From positions 1 through 64,000 of the IMG/VR virus record IMGVR_UViG_2791355221_000004: a stretch of 64,000 bases of DNA. The stretch is one strand, 5' to 3'. The position numbers were made by a program, and so were the translations under genes. Source of the stretch: a virus. Taxonomy: Duplodnaviria > Caudoviricetes. Below the pieces are notes generated by a model, which saw only the letters and a list, made by a program, of their open reading frames with translations, ran no database searches and was not told the DNA's origin. This document shows, one piece after another, positions 32,077-37,140 of this stretch. Position 1 is the stretch's first letter. Each line of letters begins with the position of its first letter.

Positions 32077-32438
32077 ATATTTGTTACCTCCGAATGTAAA
32101 TTATTAAATTTTTGAATATATCCAATGTCTTATTTCATTTTTATTAAATGTGGGTTATGATTATTAAGAAATCTTTATAATTCAGTTTTGGAGTGTAAGA
32201 GGGTAGACTGTTCGCTGCAATTTACTCTCAAACTTCCTATAAATTCAATCAATTGTCATCACATCCGTTTCCTTTGATAATTAAAGTTTACCAACAATTA
32301 GGCGATTTTTAAACTAGCTGAATTGTGATTTTAGAGGTAAATGTAGGATTGATTTTCCAGTTATAATATGCATTTGTGTTATATTTTGTCGAACTTTTGT
32401 CGAATAAAAGGAAAAAAAATAACCCTTTCGGGTTAGCA

Positions 32439-32960
32439 TTAATGTAAAAGTACGTTTATTTTTGTTGCAGATAATGTCTTCATATCAGAAATATCTTTCT
32501 CTTTACCAAGTGCAGGTTTTAAGGCAGAATCTATAAATTTTGCATAGACTTGAGTGAAAATTAGATCCTTACTATCGCTAAACTCCTCAGAGAATACAGC
32601 CCAATATTTAAATGAATCATAATATAACACCTTATCCATATTAATTAAAACCTTACTGTGGGCAACAACGAAATTCTTCATCTGAGTTAACATTTCTATA
32701 ATATCAATTTCTTTGTGAACATATATGTAAGTATCAGTTTTGGTTGTAATCACAGCTTTTGTTGTTCTTGTACATTCTACATAAAGTATTTCATTTATCG
32801 GCAACCACTCGGCAACTTTTGTCTTCTCATTTGTTACGAGTAGTGTTTTTCTATCGTTTATGATATTAGCAATGTCTTCAATTACTTCCTCCTCTACATC
32901 ACTACTTCGAAGTTGATTAAGCAATTCTGTTAGTCTCTGTAGCATACACTTATCCCCCAA
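32439..32960 (-). CDS. Stand-alone LytTR-domain regulator (no receiver domain)
   Basis: INEILYVE...FVVAHSKVLINMDKV LytTR signature. Confidence 0.75.
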   Translation of the reverse strand: MGDKCMLQRLTELLNQLRSSDVEEEVIEDIANIINDRKTLLVTNEKTKVAEWLPINEILYVECTRTTKAVITTKTDTYIYVHKEIDIIEMLTQMKNFVVAHSKVLINMDKVLYYDSFKYWAVFSEEFSDSKDLIFTQVYAKFIDSALKPALGKEKDISDMKTLSATKINVLLH

Positions 32961-33051
32961 TAATCACTATTAATTGTTTATCTATAATTATAAAACGATT
33001 CTCTCCCAAAAGAAGTTTCAATGAGAGAGAATCATTTATAACTTCTTTTAA

Positions 33052-33150
33052 TTAAACTTGCTCAGGATCATGTAAAAAAAATACTTTGCTAGTTACTCCA
33101 ATAATTACAACAAGACAAGTAATCAATAAAACCATAGCTAGTTTTTTCAT
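33052..33150 (-). CDS. agrD: AgrD-like autoinducer propeptide, 32 aa (not in ORF track)
   Basis: GGAGG SD; MKKLAMVLLITCLVVIIGVTSKVFFLHDPEQV. Confidence 0.7.
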   Translation of the reverse strand: MKKLAMVLLITCLVVIIGVTSKVFFLHDPEQV

Positions 33151-33155
33151 ATATG

Positions 33156-33857
33156 CTAGACCTCCTTTTTATCATTTTTGAGGCCATATACTTCAGGAGC
33201 ATATTCGGCTTCATTTCTCTTTATAGAAAAGTAAATTAATATTAAAGTTATAATAATCAGCCCAACAAAAACAAAAATAAAGTATTGTATAGTTAGTGAT
33301 TGATTAAAAGCATAAAGAAGGGCAGTAGAAAGAATTACACAAACAATAACAGTACCTATGAAATGGTTCATTTTTTTTATTTTTGAATCTGCTCTAAAAG
33401 CGAAGCCTTGCTGTCTAAAGATTTTAAAGCTAATACAAATAAATAAGCAAAAGATGAACTCGATTAGTTGAAAAGTATACGTCTTTACAGTAAACGCATC
33501 TTTTAACTCTTGCATACTATTAAAATATCCAGCATATATAAACAAACCAATGAGAATAGCTTGCAAGAATACAAAAATAATATAACTTACTGAAGGAACG
33601 ACAATAGAATACATCCAATTGCGTTCTTTAAAAACAAACTTAAATAACATTATTAGCGAAAATATTTGTAGAACTACGAATATTTCTCCAACATCATATA
33701 TGACAAAAAAATAAGAGAATAGGGACATAATTACAGATGTTGAAATTACCTCTTTTATGTAATACTTAATCGTAAATTGAAAAATTGTGAGCATTAAAAT
33801 AATGACGGATAAGAATTCAATTGAAGAGAAGATCATAAAGTTAACAAAGTTAATCAT
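33156..33857 (-). CDS. Multi-TM protein resembling an AgrC sensor domain, without kinase domain
   Basis: 233 aa, about 7 TM helices; no HisKA or HATPase region. Confidence 0.65.
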   Translation of the reverse strand: MINFVNFMIFSSIEFLSVIILMLTIFQFTIKYYIKEVISTSVIMSLFSYFFVIYDVGEIFVVLQIFSLIMLFKFVFKERNWMYSIVVPSVSYIIFVFLQAILIGLFIYAGYFNSMQELKDAFTVKTYTFQLIEFIFCLFICISFKIFRQQGFAFRADSKIKKMNHFIGTVIVCVILSTALLYAFNQSLTIQYFIFVFVGLIIITLILIYFSIKRNEAEYAPEVYGLKNDKKEV

Positions 33858-33861
33858 GATT

Positions 33862-34374
33862 TCACCGTTTCTTCCTGATTGGTATAAGTGTCATGGAACT
33901 AACGAAGAGTGCTGCATCTATAACTTGATTATTTAGAATAATTACCACAAGACATATAGCTATCGAGAGAAACTTTCTTTTCCTAACATTTGTTCTATGA
34001 CTTCGCTTAGTTGGTGCAAAAAGTAATATAAATATTGCTGCTAACGATAAGAATATGTAGCGATGATTTTCTATGAATGGGGCTGCTAAAGGTAAGATAA
34101 CCAATAAGCTGCTAGTAATGAAAATGCAGTGTTCAGCCTTCCTCAAGTGAAAACCACCGTTTAATGTTCGCAACAAACCGAAAACAATTAAACCAATCAA
34201 AGTATTTATTAAATTGTGAACCATTATTCCAGTAGCTAGTGAAATGAGAAGTATTGAGTAGTTGATAATGACATTAGATATCTTAGTAGATAGCTTTTTC
34301 ATATCTTCTACCAATCCAATTTCAACTACTATGGATAACTTGTTTGCTATTCTATTAGATAAAAATGCTACCAC
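33862..34374 (-). CDS. agrB: AgrB peptide-processing protein
   Basis: LRTLNGGFHL...HC (catalytic His/Cys) and LFAP motifs. Confidence 0.85.
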   Translation of the reverse strand: MVAFLSNRIANKLSIVVEIGLVEDMKKLSTKISNVIINYSILLISLATGIMVHNLINTLIGLIVFGLLRTLNGGFHLRKAEHCIFITSSLLVILPLAAPFIENHRYIFLSLAAIFILLFAPTKRSHRTNVRKRKFLSIAICLVVIILNNQVIDAALFVSSMTLIPIRKKR

Positions 34375-34471
34375 TCAAACCCTCGTCTCTATTTCATTTA
34401 TTTTCCAGCGTCTTCATTACTAATATACATCGCACATTTACTTTAGTCAACTTAATATCGTTATTTTTATT

Positions 34472-34669
34472 TTATACTCCTATTCGATCACACTTATGTG
34501 CAACAGTGAAGGTACTCGTTTCAATAATTCTTTTTTTCATACCGACATCGGTACATATCTGTTTAAGTACTTCTAAATCATCACTTTCAATTACCTTGCC
34601 ATTTGGCTTGTAGAGTTTCCATACATCTGGATTAGTACTGATTAATTGTTGAATGCGATACTTTTTCAT
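34472..34669 (-). CDS. Small hypothetical protein
   Basis: AAAGGAG SD. Confidence 0.6.
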   Translation of the reverse strand: MKKYRIQQLISTNPDVWKLYKPNGKVIESDDLEVLKQICTDVGMKKRIIETSTFTVAHKCDRIGV

Positions 34670-34783
34670 TGTGAGTGCTCCTTTCTGGGCAGGATTAATA
34701 AGCTTTTAATTGGTATTATAGTATTATTTTTATTATAATGATTATCTATTTCAAGGGGAGAAGTACGCTCCCTCGGGCGGTTT

Positions 34784-34853
34784 ACCGCGACCATATTGCC
34801 CGATGGACAAGATGGGTTTCGACTGATAACCAATCAGCAGCTCATCAGGCGGT
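34784..34853 (-). ncRNA. Type I hammerhead ribozyme, 3' of recombinase
   Basis: ACCGC-CUGAUGA-stem II-GAAA-stem III-GUC^GCGGU. Confidence 0.8.
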
Positions 34854-35806
34854 TATAGTTTACTCAACGTACTAGATGTATTGTTCTTGTAATTATTCAT
34901 TGTTTGGACATAATGACGATCAATGATTTCAATAGAACTATGTCCAGTATGTTGACGGATAGTTGATAAATCAAAACCTTCATCATGTGCCGCTGTTATG
35001 TGTCCACTTCTAAGCGAATGCCCAGCGTAGAGTTCAGGATTGAGTCCAGCAGCCTTTGCATGTTTTTTTACAATATCAGCTACTGATTCACCCGAAAGTC
35101 GTTCACCAACGTTATTGGCCTTGTTGACTGCACGAAATATAGAATCGCTTTTGATTCGTGCTTCTTTTAACCAGACAAGAAGCGTTTCGATTGGACAATA
35201 GTTGTTGTTAGCAGGGAGAATTACTATTTTTCTTTGCTTTTTCTTCTTTTGCTCGAATACGTCAATCTCCAAGCCTTTATCAGTAAAAACCAAATCTTCC
35301 ATATTAATTGAAACAATATCACCACGTCTTAAGGCAGTAGACCATCCAAGTAAAATTAATGCTTTGTCCCGTTTTCCTTGCAATGTACTGGTGTCAATCA
35401 CATCAATGATTCTCTTTAAATCATCTAATACCATAGCTTTTTTGGAAGTAGAATGATTACCTTTTGTTCGTGCAATAGAATCCATTAATTCTTCAACAAT
35501 TGGATGAGTAGTGTTTGACATAAGTTTGGCCATTTTATGTGCTTTCGAGATGGATGAAATTTTCCTTTTTATGGTTGAATGTTTGCATGTTTTGGATTCT
35601 TCAGATATGAAATGTATCAAAGTTGCTTCACTAGCAGGTAAAGGGAGGTAATTGAATTTAGAGCAGAACTGCTTAAAGTTATTCCAATCAGATTCATATG
35701 CAAGTTTGGTGTTAGCGGCTTTAGCGTTTTCCAATATTGATGCAATTCTTTCTTGATCCGCTTGAGGCATCGCTGAAAGATTTATTTCATTAGATAACAT
35801 GAACAT
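34853..35806 (-). CDS. Tyrosine recombinase (Cre/XerC-like)
   Basis: LRRGD, GHSLRSG, HTGHSS and RHY catalytic residues. Confidence 0.92.
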   Translation of the reverse strand: MFMLSNEINLSAMPQADQERIASILENAKAANTKLAYESDWNNFKQFCSKFNYLPLPASEATLIHFISEESKTCKHSTIKRKISSISKAHKMAKLMSNTTHPIVEELMDSIARTKGNHSTSKKAMVLDDLKRIIDVIDTSTLQGKRDKALILLGWSTALRRGDIVSINMEDLVFTDKGLEIDVFEQKKKKQRKIVILPANNNYCPIETLLVWLKEARIKSDSIFRAVNKANNVGERLSGESVADIVKKHAKAAGLNPELYAGHSLRSGHITAAHDEGFDLSTIRQHTGHSSIEIIDRHYVQTMNNYKNNTSSTLSKL

Positions 35807-35831
35807 ATGGATGACCTCCTTAGATTAATTT

Positions 35832-35893
35832 ACCGCTACGCTTTCCATAGAAGGAAAACGTTTCGCTAGAATCTCACTAGCTCATCAGGCGGC
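35832..35893 (-). ncRNA. Type I hammerhead ribozyme, 5' of recombinase
   Basis: CCGC-CUGAUGA-GCUAG/CUAGC-GAAA-CGUUUUCC/GGAAAGCG-UA^GCGG. Confidence 0.88.
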
Positions 35894-36115
35894 TTAAAAG
35901 ATGGCTTCACTAAAACTGCATAACTCTTTAGTGAATGAATCACGAAGTTTAGTCCATCCATTTAGAAATGCATTACAATCAAATTCAGTGAAATGCTTTT
36001 TGACCATATCGACCAACCAAAACTCTGCATTTTCATCTTCGCCAAACTCTGGATCTTCTCCGTGAAGTACCACCAAGTCAATTAATTCTTCTTTAGCTGT
36101 TTTAGTGTTTGTCAT
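35894..36115 (-). CDS. Hypothetical protein
   Basis: AAGGAG SD. Confidence 0.65.
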   Translation of the reverse strand: MTNTKTAKEELIDLVVLHGEDPEFGEDENAEFWLVDMVKKHFTEFDCNAFLNGWTKLRDSFTKELCSFSEAIF

Positions 36116-36179
36116 ATGTATATCGCTCCTTTAGAATATGTTTTGTTGTTGCTACCTAACTAGAGAGTCGTAAGAACAG

Positions 36180-36491
36180 CTACATTTGTTGCATTGCCAT
36201 TCCGAAACAGTAGTGTTCAGCCGCTTCGTCAACTGGTTTTGTTTTAACAATTTCATATGATGATCCTATGTATGAAGGTAGATCCTTGAGCTGTGTGTAA
36301 AAGGTATCGCGGCAATGGGTGAAGGATACAATAACATAACCTTCAGTAACCCAGCCTTGAACCGTTTCATGGAACTCAGCTTTGGTGTAGAAGCCAAATG
36401 GTGGTACAGATACAAGGTCTTTACCGCTAATAATGATTTGCTTCACCTTAGAGTCCCATGCAGTTTTTTGTTTCAATTGAAAAGGTGTCAT
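36180..36491 (-). CDS. Hypothetical protein
   Basis: AAGGAG SD. Confidence 0.65.
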   Translation of the reverse strand: MTPFQLKQKTAWDSKVKQIIISGKDLVSVPPFGFYTKAEFHETVQGWVTEGYVIVSFTHCRDTFYTQLKDLPSYIGSSYEIVKTKPVDEAAEHYCFGMAMQQM

Positions 36492-36505
36492 TGTGGTTAG
36501 CTCCT

Positions 36506-36667
36506 TTATTCGTATCTGTGGTAGTTTGAACTTGTTATAGGTTGGTTAGCTCCGTACTCTGCTCGCCACTTTGAAAGCTTATTGCGCCACATTTTAACTT
36601 GCTTTTCGTTACCTGCCTCTCGTGCCAGCCTGATCTTTTCAATAATTTGATTGTAGCGATTGCTCAT
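36506..36667 (-). CDS. 53-aa basic protein (not in ORF track)
   Basis: AAGGAG SD; MSNRYNQIIEKIRLAREAG... Confidence 0.6.
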   Translation of the reverse strand: MSNRYNQIIEKIRLAREAGNEKQVKMWRNKLSKWRAEYGANQPITSSNYHRYE

Positions 36668-36711
36668 TGAGGCAACTCCTTAATTTTTCGTTTGTTTAAC
36701 TCGATACTCAT

Positions 36712-36766
36712 ATAGTATCACTTAAATAGTGACACGTCAATAGTGTATCTTTATATGTGATACTAT
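36712..36766. promoter_or_regulatory. Operator/promoter region of the leftward operon
   Basis: ATAGTATCAC/GTGATACTAT inverted repeat; minus strand TTGACG-17-TACTAT. Confidence 0.65.
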
Positions 36767-36840: not shown

Positions 36841-37140
36841 ATGTCAAAAATTACTCTTCATTTAGATGAAATATTAAATGAGCTTGGAATAACTAGAAAT
36901 CATTTAGCGGTGGAAGCGAAAGTTAGACCAACAACGCTTTTAGAAATGGTTCACGGCAAAACTCAAGCAGTGAAGTTTGATACATTAATCAAAATTCTTG
37001 ATACTTTGAATATTATTGCTTTTAAGAATTGCTTCGAACGTAGATACACCATAGGTGATTTAATTAAATATGAATTCACTTTAAGAATGGTCAATGGAAT
37101 ACCCATTGATTTAATGGATGACGATTTTGAAGAAGTATAG
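36841..37140 (+). CDS. XRE/Cro-like HTH repressor
   Basis: ITRNHLAVEAKVRPTTL HTH; divergent from the operator region. Confidence 0.85.
   Translation: MSKITLHLDEILNELGITRNHLAVEAKVRPTTLLEMVHGKTQAVKFDTLIKILDTLNIIAFKNCFERRYTIGDLIKYEFTLRMVNGIPIDLMDDDFEEV

What the first reader, a model, noticed from the sequence alone, without database searches (positions are those of the whole stretch)
34784..35893. Tyrosine recombinase gene bracketed by two hammerhead ribozymes that could excise, and possibly circularise, its mRNA
Seen: on the minus (coding) strand both flanks carry a complete type I hammerhead core. Upstream: CCGC CUGAUGA GCUAG-loop-CUAGC GAAA CGUUUUCC-loop-GGAAAGCG UA^GCGG, cutting at 35837/35836, starting right after the previous stop codon and cutting just before the recombinase SD. 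Downstream: ACCGC CUGAUGA stem II GAAA stem III GUC^GCGGU, cutting at 34789/34788 and starting at the recombinase stop codon. Stems II and III differ in sequence between the copies but keep pairing, while stem I and the GCGGUAAA after the cut are shared. Known: CUGANGA/GAAA/NUH defines hammerheads; they occur in phage intergenic DNA, and tandem type I copies generate circular RNAs in retrozymes. Inference: double cleavage releases a 1048-nt monocistronic recombinase RNA. Its 5' GCGGU can re-form stem I with its own 3' ribozyme, allowing ligation to a circle or uncoupling recombinase expression from the operon. A GCGG-UAAA-CCGC hairpin after the second site may compete with stem I or protect the downstream RNA.
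Basis: partly seen in the sequence, partly recalled or inferred. Interest (0 to 1): 0.9.

Follow-up and report, generated by a model that had tools for sequence, protein, structure and literature searches.

The report
Hammerhead ribozymes bracketing a prophage recombinase
Two self-cutting hammerhead RNA motifs really do sit on either side of a recombinase gene in a large prophage and probably cut its message out of a longer transcript, an arrangement known in prophages since 2011.

Summary
Both flanks of the minus-strand recombinase gene carry a complete type I hammerhead. The predicted cuts are at 35837/35836 and 34789/34788 and would release a 1048-nt RNA.

Rfam's hammerhead models miss both motifs. 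A covariance model that I built from relatives in other DNA scores them at 70.5 and 41.5 bits, and nothing else in the window exceeds 11.3 bits. Stems II and III covary strongly in 29 relatives and in 109 distinct phage relatives.

This is a widespread phage hammerhead family that sits between genes, often in arrays. Perreault et al. 2011 (passages read) already described hammerheads flanking single prophage genes and raised both mRNA processing and circular products. This scan has also noted such clusters on other DNA.

The link to a recombinase is not recurrent:
- 0 of 13 recombinase-homologue loci carry the ribozyme.
- 0 of 94 genes downstream of family ribozymes are integrases.

Circularisation is untested, because no RNA data could be listed. 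The downstream ribozyme is predicted to prefer an inactive fold.

Verdict: a real but ordinary new member of a known kind.

The parts
35828..35894 (-). Upstream type I hammerhead (HH1). Stem I 5' strand 35893-35889, core 35888-35882, stem II 35881-35865, GAA 35864-35862, stem III 35861-35838, A17 at 35837, cut at 35837/35836, stem I 3' strand 35836-35832.
   Evidence: Sequence. R1 gives 70.5 bits, E 9.7e-20. The minimum-energy fold is the hammerhead fold at -24.8 kcal/mol, z -3.96, with 0 of 200 shuffles as good.
34853..35806 (-). Tyrosine recombinase gene, 317 aa (P0001), with its Shine-Dalgarno sequence 8 nt before the ATG at 35806.
   Evidence: PF00589 at 3.4e-20, 72.9 bits against a cut-off of 27.1. 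PHROG integrase at 8.3e-28. R160/R161, K187, H263, R266, H289 and Y299 are invariant in 17 homologues.
34780..34854 (-). Downstream type I hammerhead (HH2). Stem I 5' strand 34853-34849 (its first base is the last base of the stop codon), core 34848-34842, stem II 34841-34821 (2-nt bulge), stem III 34817-34790 (one bulge, one mismatch), C17 at 34789, cut at 34789/34788.
   Evidence: Sequence. R1 gives 41.5 bits, E 1.1e-10. The hammerhead fold scores -17.2 kcal/mol against a minimum-energy fold of -25.1 kcal/mol in which the core pairs with the 3' strand of stem II.
34777..34788 (-). Four-pair hairpin formed by the first bases of the RNA downstream of the HH2 cut. It uses the stem I 3' strand, so it competes with stem I.
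   Evidence: Folds. The same feature appears in 26 of 29 family members against 9.1 expected from shuffles.
34789..35836 (-). Predicted excised one-gene recombinase RNA, 1048 nt, with a 5'-OH and a 3' end that carries HH2 and a 2',3'-cyclic phosphate.
   Evidence: Inferred from the two cut sites. There is no experimental evidence.
32420..36740 (-). Putative minus-strand operon that holds the ribozymes. In order: promoter-like site 36740-36712, three small ORFs (36506-36667, 36180-36491, 35894-36115), HH1, the recombinase, HH2, a 65-aa ORF, an AgrB-like gene, a membrane protein, a LytTR-like gene, and a terminator-like hairpin at 32435-32420.
   Evidence: ORFs. Pfam and PHROG hits. Consensus scans: promoter-like sites are no more frequent than in shuffles, so the promoter is weak evidence. 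No terminator-like site was found on the minus strand between 36740 and 32435.

Best explanation
Two cis-acting type I hammerhead ribozymes of a widespread phage family lie in the gaps on either side of a tyrosine recombinase gene. The gene sits inside a minus-strand operon of a roughly 100-kb low-G+C prophage.

Proposed mechanism:
- When the operon is transcribed, each ribozyme cuts itself. The long transcript is split into three parts: an upstream piece ending in HH1, a 1048-nt recombinase message with a 30-nt leader, and a downstream piece encoding the agr-like genes.
- This uncouples the stability and translation of the recombinase message from its neighbours.
- I further infer that the ends matter. 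The downstream piece begins with a hairpin, as in most family members, which should shield its 5'-OH end. The recombinase message begins unpaired and may therefore be short-lived in a host that has RNase J.

Shown here: the motifs, their family membership, the covariation and the gene context.

Inferred: cleavage in vivo, co-transcription of the operon, and any effect on RNA stability.
For: Motif:
- The catalytic core and helices are intact in both copies.
- R1 gives 70.5 and 41.5 bits, and these are the only matches in the window with filters off.
- R1 finds 3 matches in the whole genome at E<=1: these two and one further copy on contig C25 with a degenerate stem I.

Family and covariation:
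- Pattern scans found relatives in genome, metagenome and viral contigs.
- In 29 members, 97.4% of cells pair, with 102 cells changed on both sides against 28.8 in shuffles (0 of 500 shuffles as high). Paired cells fall to 28-46% when the partner is slid.
- In 109 distinct viral members, 96.9% of cells pair, with 363 cells changed on both sides against 105.6 (0 of 500).

Position in other DNA:
- Arrays occur elsewhere, for example seven copies in the 2.7-kb L047 and three in L049. There are 118 matches in 79 viral loci.
- Family ribozymes abut upstream stop codons and sit a median 32.5 nt before the next start codon.

Context:
- The island spans about 145-245 kb of contig C56 at roughly 35% G+C, against 45.6% for the genome.
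- It carries tail and lysin genes.
- No minus-strand terminator-like site lies between the ribozymes and the operon ends.

Literature:
- Perreault et al. 2011 (PMC3088659, passages read) report hammerheads flanking single genes in prophages, often near integrases. They report cleavage of three such clusters in vitro and of one in vivo.
- The reviews PMC6155905 and PMC6765202 (passages read) say the same and call the biological role open.

Stability idea:
- The 5' end of the downstream cleavage product is paired in 26 of 29 members against 9.1 expected. HH1 is one of the 3 exceptions.
- The host has 3 RNase J matches above the curated cut-off.
- In B. subtilis the 5'-OH left by the glmS ribozyme is a substrate for RNase J1 (PMC3328962, passage read).
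Against: - There are no expression or cleavage data for this locus.
- Rfam's curated hammerhead models do not reach their cut-offs on these copies or on any of 18 related loci.
- HH2's catalytic fold is predicted at -17.2 kcal/mol against -25.1 kcal/mol for a fold that pairs the core with stem II's 3' strand. With 14 more bases downstream the values are -17.9 and -27.6, and the 34788-34777 hairpin replaces stem I. HH2 may therefore cut slowly, conditionally, or not at all.
- Stem I has only 5 pairs, and no loop-loop contact was established.
- Promoter-like sites in the region are no more frequent than in shuffles (28 found, 30.8 expected), so the single-transcript assumption is inferred from gene order only.
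- The alignments used for covariation were fitted to the model, and their members are partly related copies from the same arrays, so the shuffle counts overstate independence.
- The 26-of-29 hairpin count includes seven copies from one array.
Confidence: 0.68

Rival explanations
1. Circular recombinase mRNA. After both cuts, the free 5' end of the 1048-nt RNA docks on the vacated stem I strand of HH2. It is then joined to the 2',3'-cyclic phosphate end, either by the ribozyme's reverse reaction or by host RtcB. The result would be an exonuclease-resistant circle that can still be translated.
For: - HH1 and HH2 have identical stem I strands.
- In the minimum-energy fold of the excised RNA, bases 1-5 pair with the HH2 stem I strand with probability about 0.24.
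- The RNA downstream of HH2 folds its own end into a hairpin, which would vacate that strand. The HH1 product has a free 5' end, unlike 26 of 29 family members.
- The host encodes two RtcB homologues at 408 and 386 bits against a cut-off of 27.
- Stem I is CCGC/GCGG in 21 of 23 copies found by a descriptor that accepts any stem I. The other 2 are near variants.
- Perreault et al. raised this possibility.
Against: - There are no RNA data.
- Perreault et al. 2011 state that they could not detect circular or spliced products (data not shown in the paper).
- The end-to-end pairing follows by construction from the shared stem I.
- In most family members the new 5' end is locked in a local hairpin (26 of 29). 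This argues against circularisation as the family's general purpose.
- HH2's active fold is predicted to be disfavoured.
- Part of the stem I uniformity reflects how the members were found, because the search patterns fixed it.
Confidence: 0.1
2. Only the upstream ribozyme is efficient. HH2 is a slow, switch-like or decaying copy, so the recombinase stays attached to the downstream agr-like genes. The main effect would then be to separate both from the three small upstream ORFs.
For: - HH2 scores 29 bits below HH1 and has a bulged stem II and stem III.
- Its catalytic fold is 8-10 kcal/mol above the minimum-energy fold, in which the core is paired.
- The hairpin at 34788-34777 competes with stem I.
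Against: - All core positions of HH2 are intact.
- Nearest-neighbour energies ignore the tertiary structure of the hammerhead core and folding during transcription.
- An independent metagenome relative (L051) keeps the same stem II design and the same hairpin while having a completely different stem III. This suggests selection rather than decay.
Confidence: 0.2
3. The two repeats are DNA sites, not RNAs. They would be recombination targets of the enclosed tyrosine recombinase, or integron-attC-like cassette boundaries.
For: - They are direct repeats flanking a recombinase gene.
- Arrays of small ORFs separated by about 60-nt structured repeats (L047) superficially resemble cassette arrays.
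Against: - The invariant positions are exactly the hammerhead catalytic core, while the variable parts keep RNA-type pairing, including G-U pairs.
- 0 of 94 ORFs downstream of family copies match PF00589.
- Only 1 weak recombinase-like ORF occurs in 88 family loci.
- 0 of 13 recombinase-homologue loci carry the repeat.
Confidence: 0.02

Closest known systems
Clustered hammerhead ribozymes flanking single genes or short gene blocks in prophages (Perreault et al. 2011, PLoS Comput Biol, PMC3088659; passages read)
   Same: Several same-strand hammerheads in a prophage flank an individual gene and lie close to integrase genes. The proposed role is processing of a long transcript into single-gene mRNAs, with circular or spliced products raised as an alternative.
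   Different: - Here the bracketed gene is itself a tyrosine recombinase.
- The prophage is about 100 kb with SPbeta-like markers and has a separate large serine recombinase at its edge.
- The ribozymes belong to a type I subfamily with a near-invariant 4-5 pair stem I that Rfam 15 models do not call.
- I could not see the paper's figures or supplementary alignments, so this subfamily may already be in its dataset.
Rfam Hammerhead_1 (RF00163), the type I hammerhead model
   Same: Same topology (stem I open) and the same core.
   Different: - The best RF00163 score in the whole genome is 19 bits against a gathering score of 34, and that match is at a different locus.
- With the E-value threshold on this region, no RF00163 match was listed for HH1 or HH2. 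Overlapping matches within one clan are merged, and only a Hammerhead_3 match at 18.5 bits was reported.
Retrozymes and viroid-like circular RNAs with paired hammerheads (for example PMC4918200 and PMC7229834; search listing and abstracts only)
   Same: Two hammerheads with interchangeable stem I bracket a unit whose ends could be joined into a circle.
   Different: - Those are eukaryotic or subviral. Retrozymes are non-coding repeats that move through reverse transcription.
- Here a single-copy bacterial protein gene lies in a DNA prophage, with no long repeats and no evidence of a circle.
glmS ribozyme and RNase J1 decay in Bacillus subtilis (Collins et al. 2007, as described in PMC3328962; passage read)
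   Same: A self-cleaving ribozyme upstream of a coding region leaves a 5'-OH that can mark the message for 5'-exonuclease decay in a Bacillota host.
   Different: glmS is controlled by a metabolite and belongs to a different ribozyme class. No ligand or decay data exist here, so the parallel is an inference.
Lambda int retroregulation by sib (recalled from general knowledge; no paper read here)
   Same: RNA processing next to a phage recombinase gene sets recombinase expression independently of neighbouring genes on the same transcript.
   Different: sib acts through RNase III cleavage downstream of int and depends on the integration state. Here the cuts would be ribozyme-made and lie on both sides of the gene.

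Membership tests
Hammerhead ribozyme | Conserved core C3-U4-G5-A6-N7-G8-A9 | tested here: met
   Present in both copies at 35888-35882 and 34848-34842. In relatives N7 varies between U, C and A while the rest of the core is kept.
Hammerhead ribozyme | G12-A13-A14, the A15.1-U16.1 pair, and a non-G base at position 17 before the cut | tested here: met
   HH1 has A17 at 35837 and HH2 has C17 at 34789. A15.1-U16.1 is invariant in 29 of 29 and 109 of 109 family members.
Hammerhead ribozyme | Three helices around the core, supported by compensatory changes | tested here: met
   - Stems II and III: 9 of 10 pairs show changes on both sides, and 95.7-98.2% of cells pair. The viral set agrees.
- Stem I: nearly invariant, with a few C-G to U-A changes among 109 viral copies.
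- Caveat: the alignments were fitted to the model.
Hammerhead ribozyme | Type I topology (stem I open, stems II and III closed by loops) | tested here: met
Hammerhead ribozyme | Tertiary contact between stem I and loop II, needed for fast cleavage at physiological Mg2+ | tested here: inconclusive
   - Loop II keeps a U-G at its start in 12 of 12 seed sequences.
- The bases after stem I are conserved in those sequences, but the search pattern fixed them.
- No contact could be modelled.
Hammerhead ribozyme | Self-cleavage at the predicted phosphodiester bond | not testable with these tools
Hammerhead ribozyme | Score above the gathering cut-off of an Rfam hammerhead model (a curation criterion, not a biological one) | tested here: not met
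Prophage hammerhead clusters (Perreault et al. 2011) | Two or more same-strand hammerheads flanking a gene inside prophage DNA | tested here: met
   Two copies 1048 nt apart on the minus strand, inside a low-G+C island with tail and lysin genes.
Retrozyme or viroid-like circular RNA | A covalently closed RNA circle detected | not testable with these tools
   No RNA run was listed.
Retrozyme or viroid-like circular RNA | A repeated, non-coding unit bounded by long repeats that carry the ribozymes | tested here: not met
   - The unit encodes a 317-aa enzyme.
- The two ribozymes share only the core and stem I.
- The family pattern occurs at only these 2 places in the genome.
Tyrosine recombinase (Phage_integrase, PF00589) | Domain score above the curated cut-off, with the R-K-H-R-H-Y catalytic residues | tested here: met
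   72.9 bits against 27.1. R160/R161, K187, H263, R266, H289 and Y299 are invariant in 17 aligned homologues. Assigning these to the catalytic roles is my reading.

The most novel reading that the evidence does not exclude
The ribozyme pair makes a circular, translatable recombinase mRNA. HH2's downstream product folds away into its own hairpin. The unusually free 5' end left by HH1 then takes its place on HH2's stem I. The nick is sealed by the ribozyme itself or by one of the host's two RtcB ligases. This would give a long-lived recombinase message whose level is set by RNA topology rather than by transcription.
Probability: 0.08. Interest if true: 0.8.

Novelty: new member of a known kind. 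Interest (0 to 1): 0.33.

Why it matters
The role of the many hammerheads in phage and prophage operons is still described as open in the reviews I read. This locus could help test it for four reasons.
- The bracketed gene has a recognisable function.
- The host genome encodes both RNase J and RtcB.
- The two ribozymes differ in a way that gives clear predictions. One leaves an exposed 5' end. The other leaves a hairpin-capped 5' end and has a competing inactive fold.
- The family-wide 5' hairpin on the downstream product (26 of 29 against 9.1 expected) suggests a rule: the ribozyme cuts, and the hairpin then either protects the next message or prevents re-ligation.

In practical terms, Rfam 15 misses this common phage subfamily, which has at least 116 stretches in the viral collection. 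Ribozyme annotation of phage genomes is therefore incomplete. None of this changes the fact that the arrangement itself has been in print since 2011.

Tried and rejected
Rfam:
- The gathering search of the window gave only a tRNA.
- The E-value search of the region gave a partial Hammerhead_3 match for HH1 and nothing for HH2.
- RF00163 and RF02276 over the whole genome gave nothing above their cut-offs.
- The gathering search of 18 related loci gave no hammerhead, even in the L047 array.
- I conclude that the Rfam models lack sensitivity for this subfamily, not that the motifs are false.

Is ribozyme bracketing a property of this recombinase family? No.
- R1 with filters off found nothing better than 8.9 bits in 13 homologue loci. 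These were 11 loci from six other genomes of the family and order at 31-49% identity, one same-genus locus at 32%, and the genome's own paralogue.
- The flanks were only 1.5 kb.

Is a recombinase a usual cargo of this ribozyme family? No.
- A subfamily HMM found 1 weak ORF in 88 loci.
- Pfam found 0 integrases among 94 distinct downstream ORFs. I gave 94 of the 96 ORFs and dropped two L118 ORFs that I took to duplicate the L105 ones (same lengths; the two loci give identical ribozyme scores). For 45 of 145 ribozymes no downstream ORF was called.
- ORFs translated from window 28-42 kb have no tblastn match in 17 family loci.
- 10 downstream ORFs had no Pfam or PHROG hit worth naming.

Other searches that gave nothing useful:
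- blastn of the region against the phage collection gave no match.
- Sequencing runs: none was listed, and no RNA holder was listed.
- A literature search for the family's motif strings gave no relevant paper. Such strings are usually in figures or supplements, which I could not see.
- Promoter scan: sites are no more frequent than in shuffles, so I do not claim a mapped promoter.

Is the recombinase the prophage's integrase?
- It is the only PF00589 match in the island, but it lies about 35 kb from the left edge.
- A 555-aa serine recombinase ORF lies at the right edge.
- A 35-nt partial duplicate of the internal tRNA-Val has no partner at the island ends.
- I leave its role open.

Complex prediction, structure prediction, fold search and the protein atlas were not used because no claim here needs them.

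Full report
WHAT IS THERE.

Directly after the stop codon of a 73-aa ORF (35896-35894) comes the upstream ribozyme, HH1:
- a 5-pair stem I strand
- the hammerhead core (35888-35882)
- a 5-pair stem II with a 7-nt loop
- GAA
- a 9-pair stem III that opens with A-U
- A17 at 35837
- the other stem I strand

The cut at 35837/35836 leaves a 30-nt leader holding a strong Shine-Dalgarno sequence 8 nt before the ATG at 35806.

The 317-aa product is a tyrosine recombinase:
- PF00589 scores 72.9 bits against a cut-off of 27.1.
- PHROG integrase scores 8.3e-28.
- The R-K-H-R-H-Y positions are invariant among 17 homologues.

The second hammerhead, HH2, begins with the last A of the recombinase stop codon (34855-34853). 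Its core is at 34848-34842. Stem II has a 2-nt bulge, and stem III has one bulge and one mismatch. C17 is at 34789 and the cut falls at 34789/34788.

The RNA between the cuts is 1048 nt. The first 12 bases after the second cut can form a 4-pair hairpin at 34788-34777.

IS IT MORE THAN CHANCE? A loose core-plus-stem-I pattern matches twice in the window against 0.07 expected, and 0 of 100 shuffles reached 2. The family pattern matches only these two places in the 9.18-Mb genome.

Rfam does not help:
- At gathering scores the window yields only a tRNA.
- With the E-value threshold, HH1 gets a partial, mis-registered type III match (18.5 bits, E 1.1) and HH2 gets nothing.
- RF00163 and RF02276 reach no cut-off anywhere in the genome.

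I therefore looked for relatives by pattern. I found them in one viral contig, in genome contigs (5 stretches, of which 2, L040 and L041, look genuine) and in metagenome contigs (12 stretches, of which 11 look genuine). From 12 of them I built the covariance model R1.

R1 scores HH1 at 70.5 bits (E 9.7e-20) and HH2 at 41.5 bits (E 1.1e-10). With filters off, the next best match in the window is 11.3 bits. R1 also finds one more copy in the genome, on contig C25, with a degenerate stem I.

COMPARATIVE SUPPORT. In 29 family members:
- 97.4% of cells form standard pairs, against 74.6% in shuffles.
- 102 cells carry changes on both sides, against 28.8 in shuffles (0 of 500 shuffles as high).
- Pairing falls to 28-46% when partners are slid by 1-3 columns.
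- Every pair of stem II beyond the closing G-C, and 5 of 6 pairs of stem III, covary.

R1 finds 118 copies in the 79 loci returned. In the 109 distinct sequences, 96.9% of cells pair, with 363 cells changed on both sides against 105.6 (0 of 500).

Two caveats apply. These alignments were fitted to the model, and many rows are sister copies from the same arrays.

Stem I is nearly fixed. A descriptor that accepts any stem I found 23 type I hammerheads in 127 kb of family loci. All had the same four G+C pairs, except for two near variants. Among the viral copies a few C-G to U-A exchanges keep the pairing. Part of this uniformity comes from search patterns that fixed stem I.

WHAT THE FAMILY DOES ELSEWHERE. 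It punctuates operons.
- L047 has seven copies in 2.7 kb, each between two small ORFs.
- L049 has three copies, and L040 and L048 have two each.
- Several viral loci have three to eight copies.
- The upstream stop codon typically ends within a base of the ribozyme or lies in its core. The next start codon, with a ribosome-binding site, follows a median 32.5 nt after it.
- The flanked genes are small (median 96.5 aa) and mostly unknown. Of 94 distinct downstream ORFs, Pfam names only a few, such as Amidoligase_2 in 3 and helix-turn-helix families, and none is an integrase.
- A recombinase-subfamily HMM finds 1 weak ORF in 88 loci.
- Conversely, none of 13 loci encoding homologues of this recombinase (31-49% identity) has an R1 match above 8.9 bits within 1.5 kb.

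So the pairing of ribozymes with a recombinase is a one-off among what I could examine.

CONTEXT IN THIS GENOME.
- The window lies in a roughly 100-kb island of about 35% G+C (contig C56, about 145-245 kb) in a 45.6% G+C genome.
- The island carries tail proteins, including a YOMG_N/Prophage_tail protein, and a VanY/M15 lysin.
- A 555-aa serine recombinase ORF lies at its right edge.
- The ribozyme-flanked gene is the island's only PF00589 match. It lies about 35 kb inside the island, so it may not be the main integrase.
- It sits in a run of minus-strand genes: three small ORFs, HH1, the recombinase, HH2, a 65-aa ORF, AgrB-like, a membrane protein and LytTR-like.
- This run lies between a divergent regulatory region (an XRE-type gene on the plus strand at 36841) and a terminator-like hairpin at 32435-32420. 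No minus-strand terminator-like site was found in between.
- Co-transcription is inferred from this layout only.

HOW IT MOST LIKELY WORKS. The best-supported reading is the one in print. Perreault et al. 2011 (PMC3088659, passages read) report:
- many bacterial hammerheads lie near integrase genes in prophages
- several often flank individual genes
- three such clusters cleaved in vitro and one in vivo
- the arrangement implies processing of long phage transcripts into single-gene mRNAs
- spliced or circular products were considered but not detected

Two reviews (PMC6155905 and PMC6765202, passages read) repeat this and call the role open. This scan has also logged many such clusters on other DNA: 920 notes in at least 601 genomes hold the search words.

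I add one observation and one inference.

The observation: in 26 of 29 family members, the first bases of the RNA downstream of the cut fold into a hairpin that includes the very 5' end. Shuffles give 9.1 expected. A strict four-pair version is present in 11 of 29. HH2 follows this rule. HH1, in front of the recombinase, is one of three exceptions.

The inference rests on two facts. The host has three RNase J matches above the curated cut-off. In B. subtilis the 5'-OH left by the glmS ribozyme is a substrate for RNase J1 (PMC3328962, passage read). So the hairpin may protect the downstream genes, while the recombinase message, with an exposed 5'-OH, would be short-lived. The same hairpin could instead serve to release the product and prevent re-ligation. 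I cannot tell these apart.

EVIDENCE AGAINST, AND THE CIRCLE. HH1's minimum-energy fold is the hammerhead itself (-24.8 kcal/mol, z -3.96).

HH2 is different:
- Its catalytic fold scores -17.2 kcal/mol against -25.1 for a fold in which the core pairs with the 3' strand of stem II.
- With 14 more bases downstream, the 34788-34777 hairpin replaces stem I, and the values are -17.9 against -27.6 kcal/mol.
- Such energies ignore the core's tertiary structure and co-transcriptional folding.
- A metagenome relative (L051) keeps the same stem II design and hairpin with an unrelated stem III.

HH2 may therefore be conditional rather than dead. Its efficiency is the weakest link in the excision model.

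For circularisation, the points in favour are:
- identical stem I strands
- the predicted pairing of the RNA's 5' end with HH2's stem I strand in the minimum-energy fold (probability about 0.24; expected by construction)
- the free 5' end after HH1
- two RtcB genes in the host

The points against are:
- no RNA data for this locus
- the negative report in Perreault et al. 2011
- the family-wide 5' hairpin, which would normally block such docking

I put the circle at about 0.08-0.1.

VERDICT. Release of a one-gene recombinase RNA is plausible and matches published precedent. Circularisation is only not excluded. The arrangement is a new member of a known kind, so the interest is modest. Its value is as a tractable test case, with a gene of known function, a host that has RNase J and RtcB, and two ribozymes with contrasting ends. 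A second point of value is the 5'-hairpin regularity, which deserves an independent check.

Noticed in passing
L047 1-2732 (metagenome contig), also L095/L144, L104, L119, L138: Dense arrays of the same hammerhead subfamily. L047 has seven copies in 2.7 kb, one in every gap between small ORFs of unknown function. Several viral loci have 3-8 copies.
   Followed up: partly
29 family members; window 34777-34788 is one example: The RNA downstream of the cut starts with a hairpin that includes its first base in 26 of 29 members, against 9.1 expected from shuffles. The copy before the recombinase is an exception. The counts include sister copies from the same arrays.
   Followed up: partly
window 34821-34848 and L051 10497-10577: In HH2 and its metagenome relative L051, the 3' strand of stem II can pair with the catalytic core instead of with its stem partner. 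This gives a predicted inactive fold 8-10 kcal/mol more stable than the catalytic fold. It may be a switch.
   Followed up: partly
L058 (own genome, contig C25:100170-103236), 1501-1567 and 1886-1969: A third, weaker family hammerhead (36.1 bits) whose stem I has lost a pair. About 320 nt away, on the opposite strand, lies a c-di-GMP-II riboswitch (72.6 bits). A short tandem repeat sits just upstream at about 1400-1450.
   Followed up: no
window 32439-34669: Downstream of HH2 lies an agr-like cassette: a 65-aa ORF, an AgrB-like protein (PF04647, 3.4e-13), a 233-aa membrane protein (a PHROG family labelled moron/membrane protein) and a weak LytTR match. No kinase or receiver domain was detected in the ORFs scanned.
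   Followed up: no
contig C56 about 145000-245000 (window 1-64000 lies inside): An island of roughly 100 kb at about 35% G+C in a 45.6% G+C genome. It has tail and lysin genes, a ParB_N protein, and a 555-aa serine recombinase ORF at C56:240608-241051 near its right edge.
   Followed up: partly
window 28312-28529: A complete tRNA-Val(GAC) at 28458-28529 and, 171 nt away, a 35-nt 94%-identical partial copy. A related tRNA segment lies on contig C44. No partner copy lies at the island's ends.
   Followed up: partly
18 family and homologue loci; viral collection: Rfam 15 at gathering scores calls none of the family's hammerheads, not even the seven in L047. Yet at least 116 stretches in the viral collection match the family pattern.
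   Followed up: yes
L119, L090, L140 and other viral loci: Amidoligase_2 (PF12224) proteins lie immediately downstream of family hammerheads in 3 of 94 distinct ORFs, with a best E-value of 3.8e-65.
   Followed up: no
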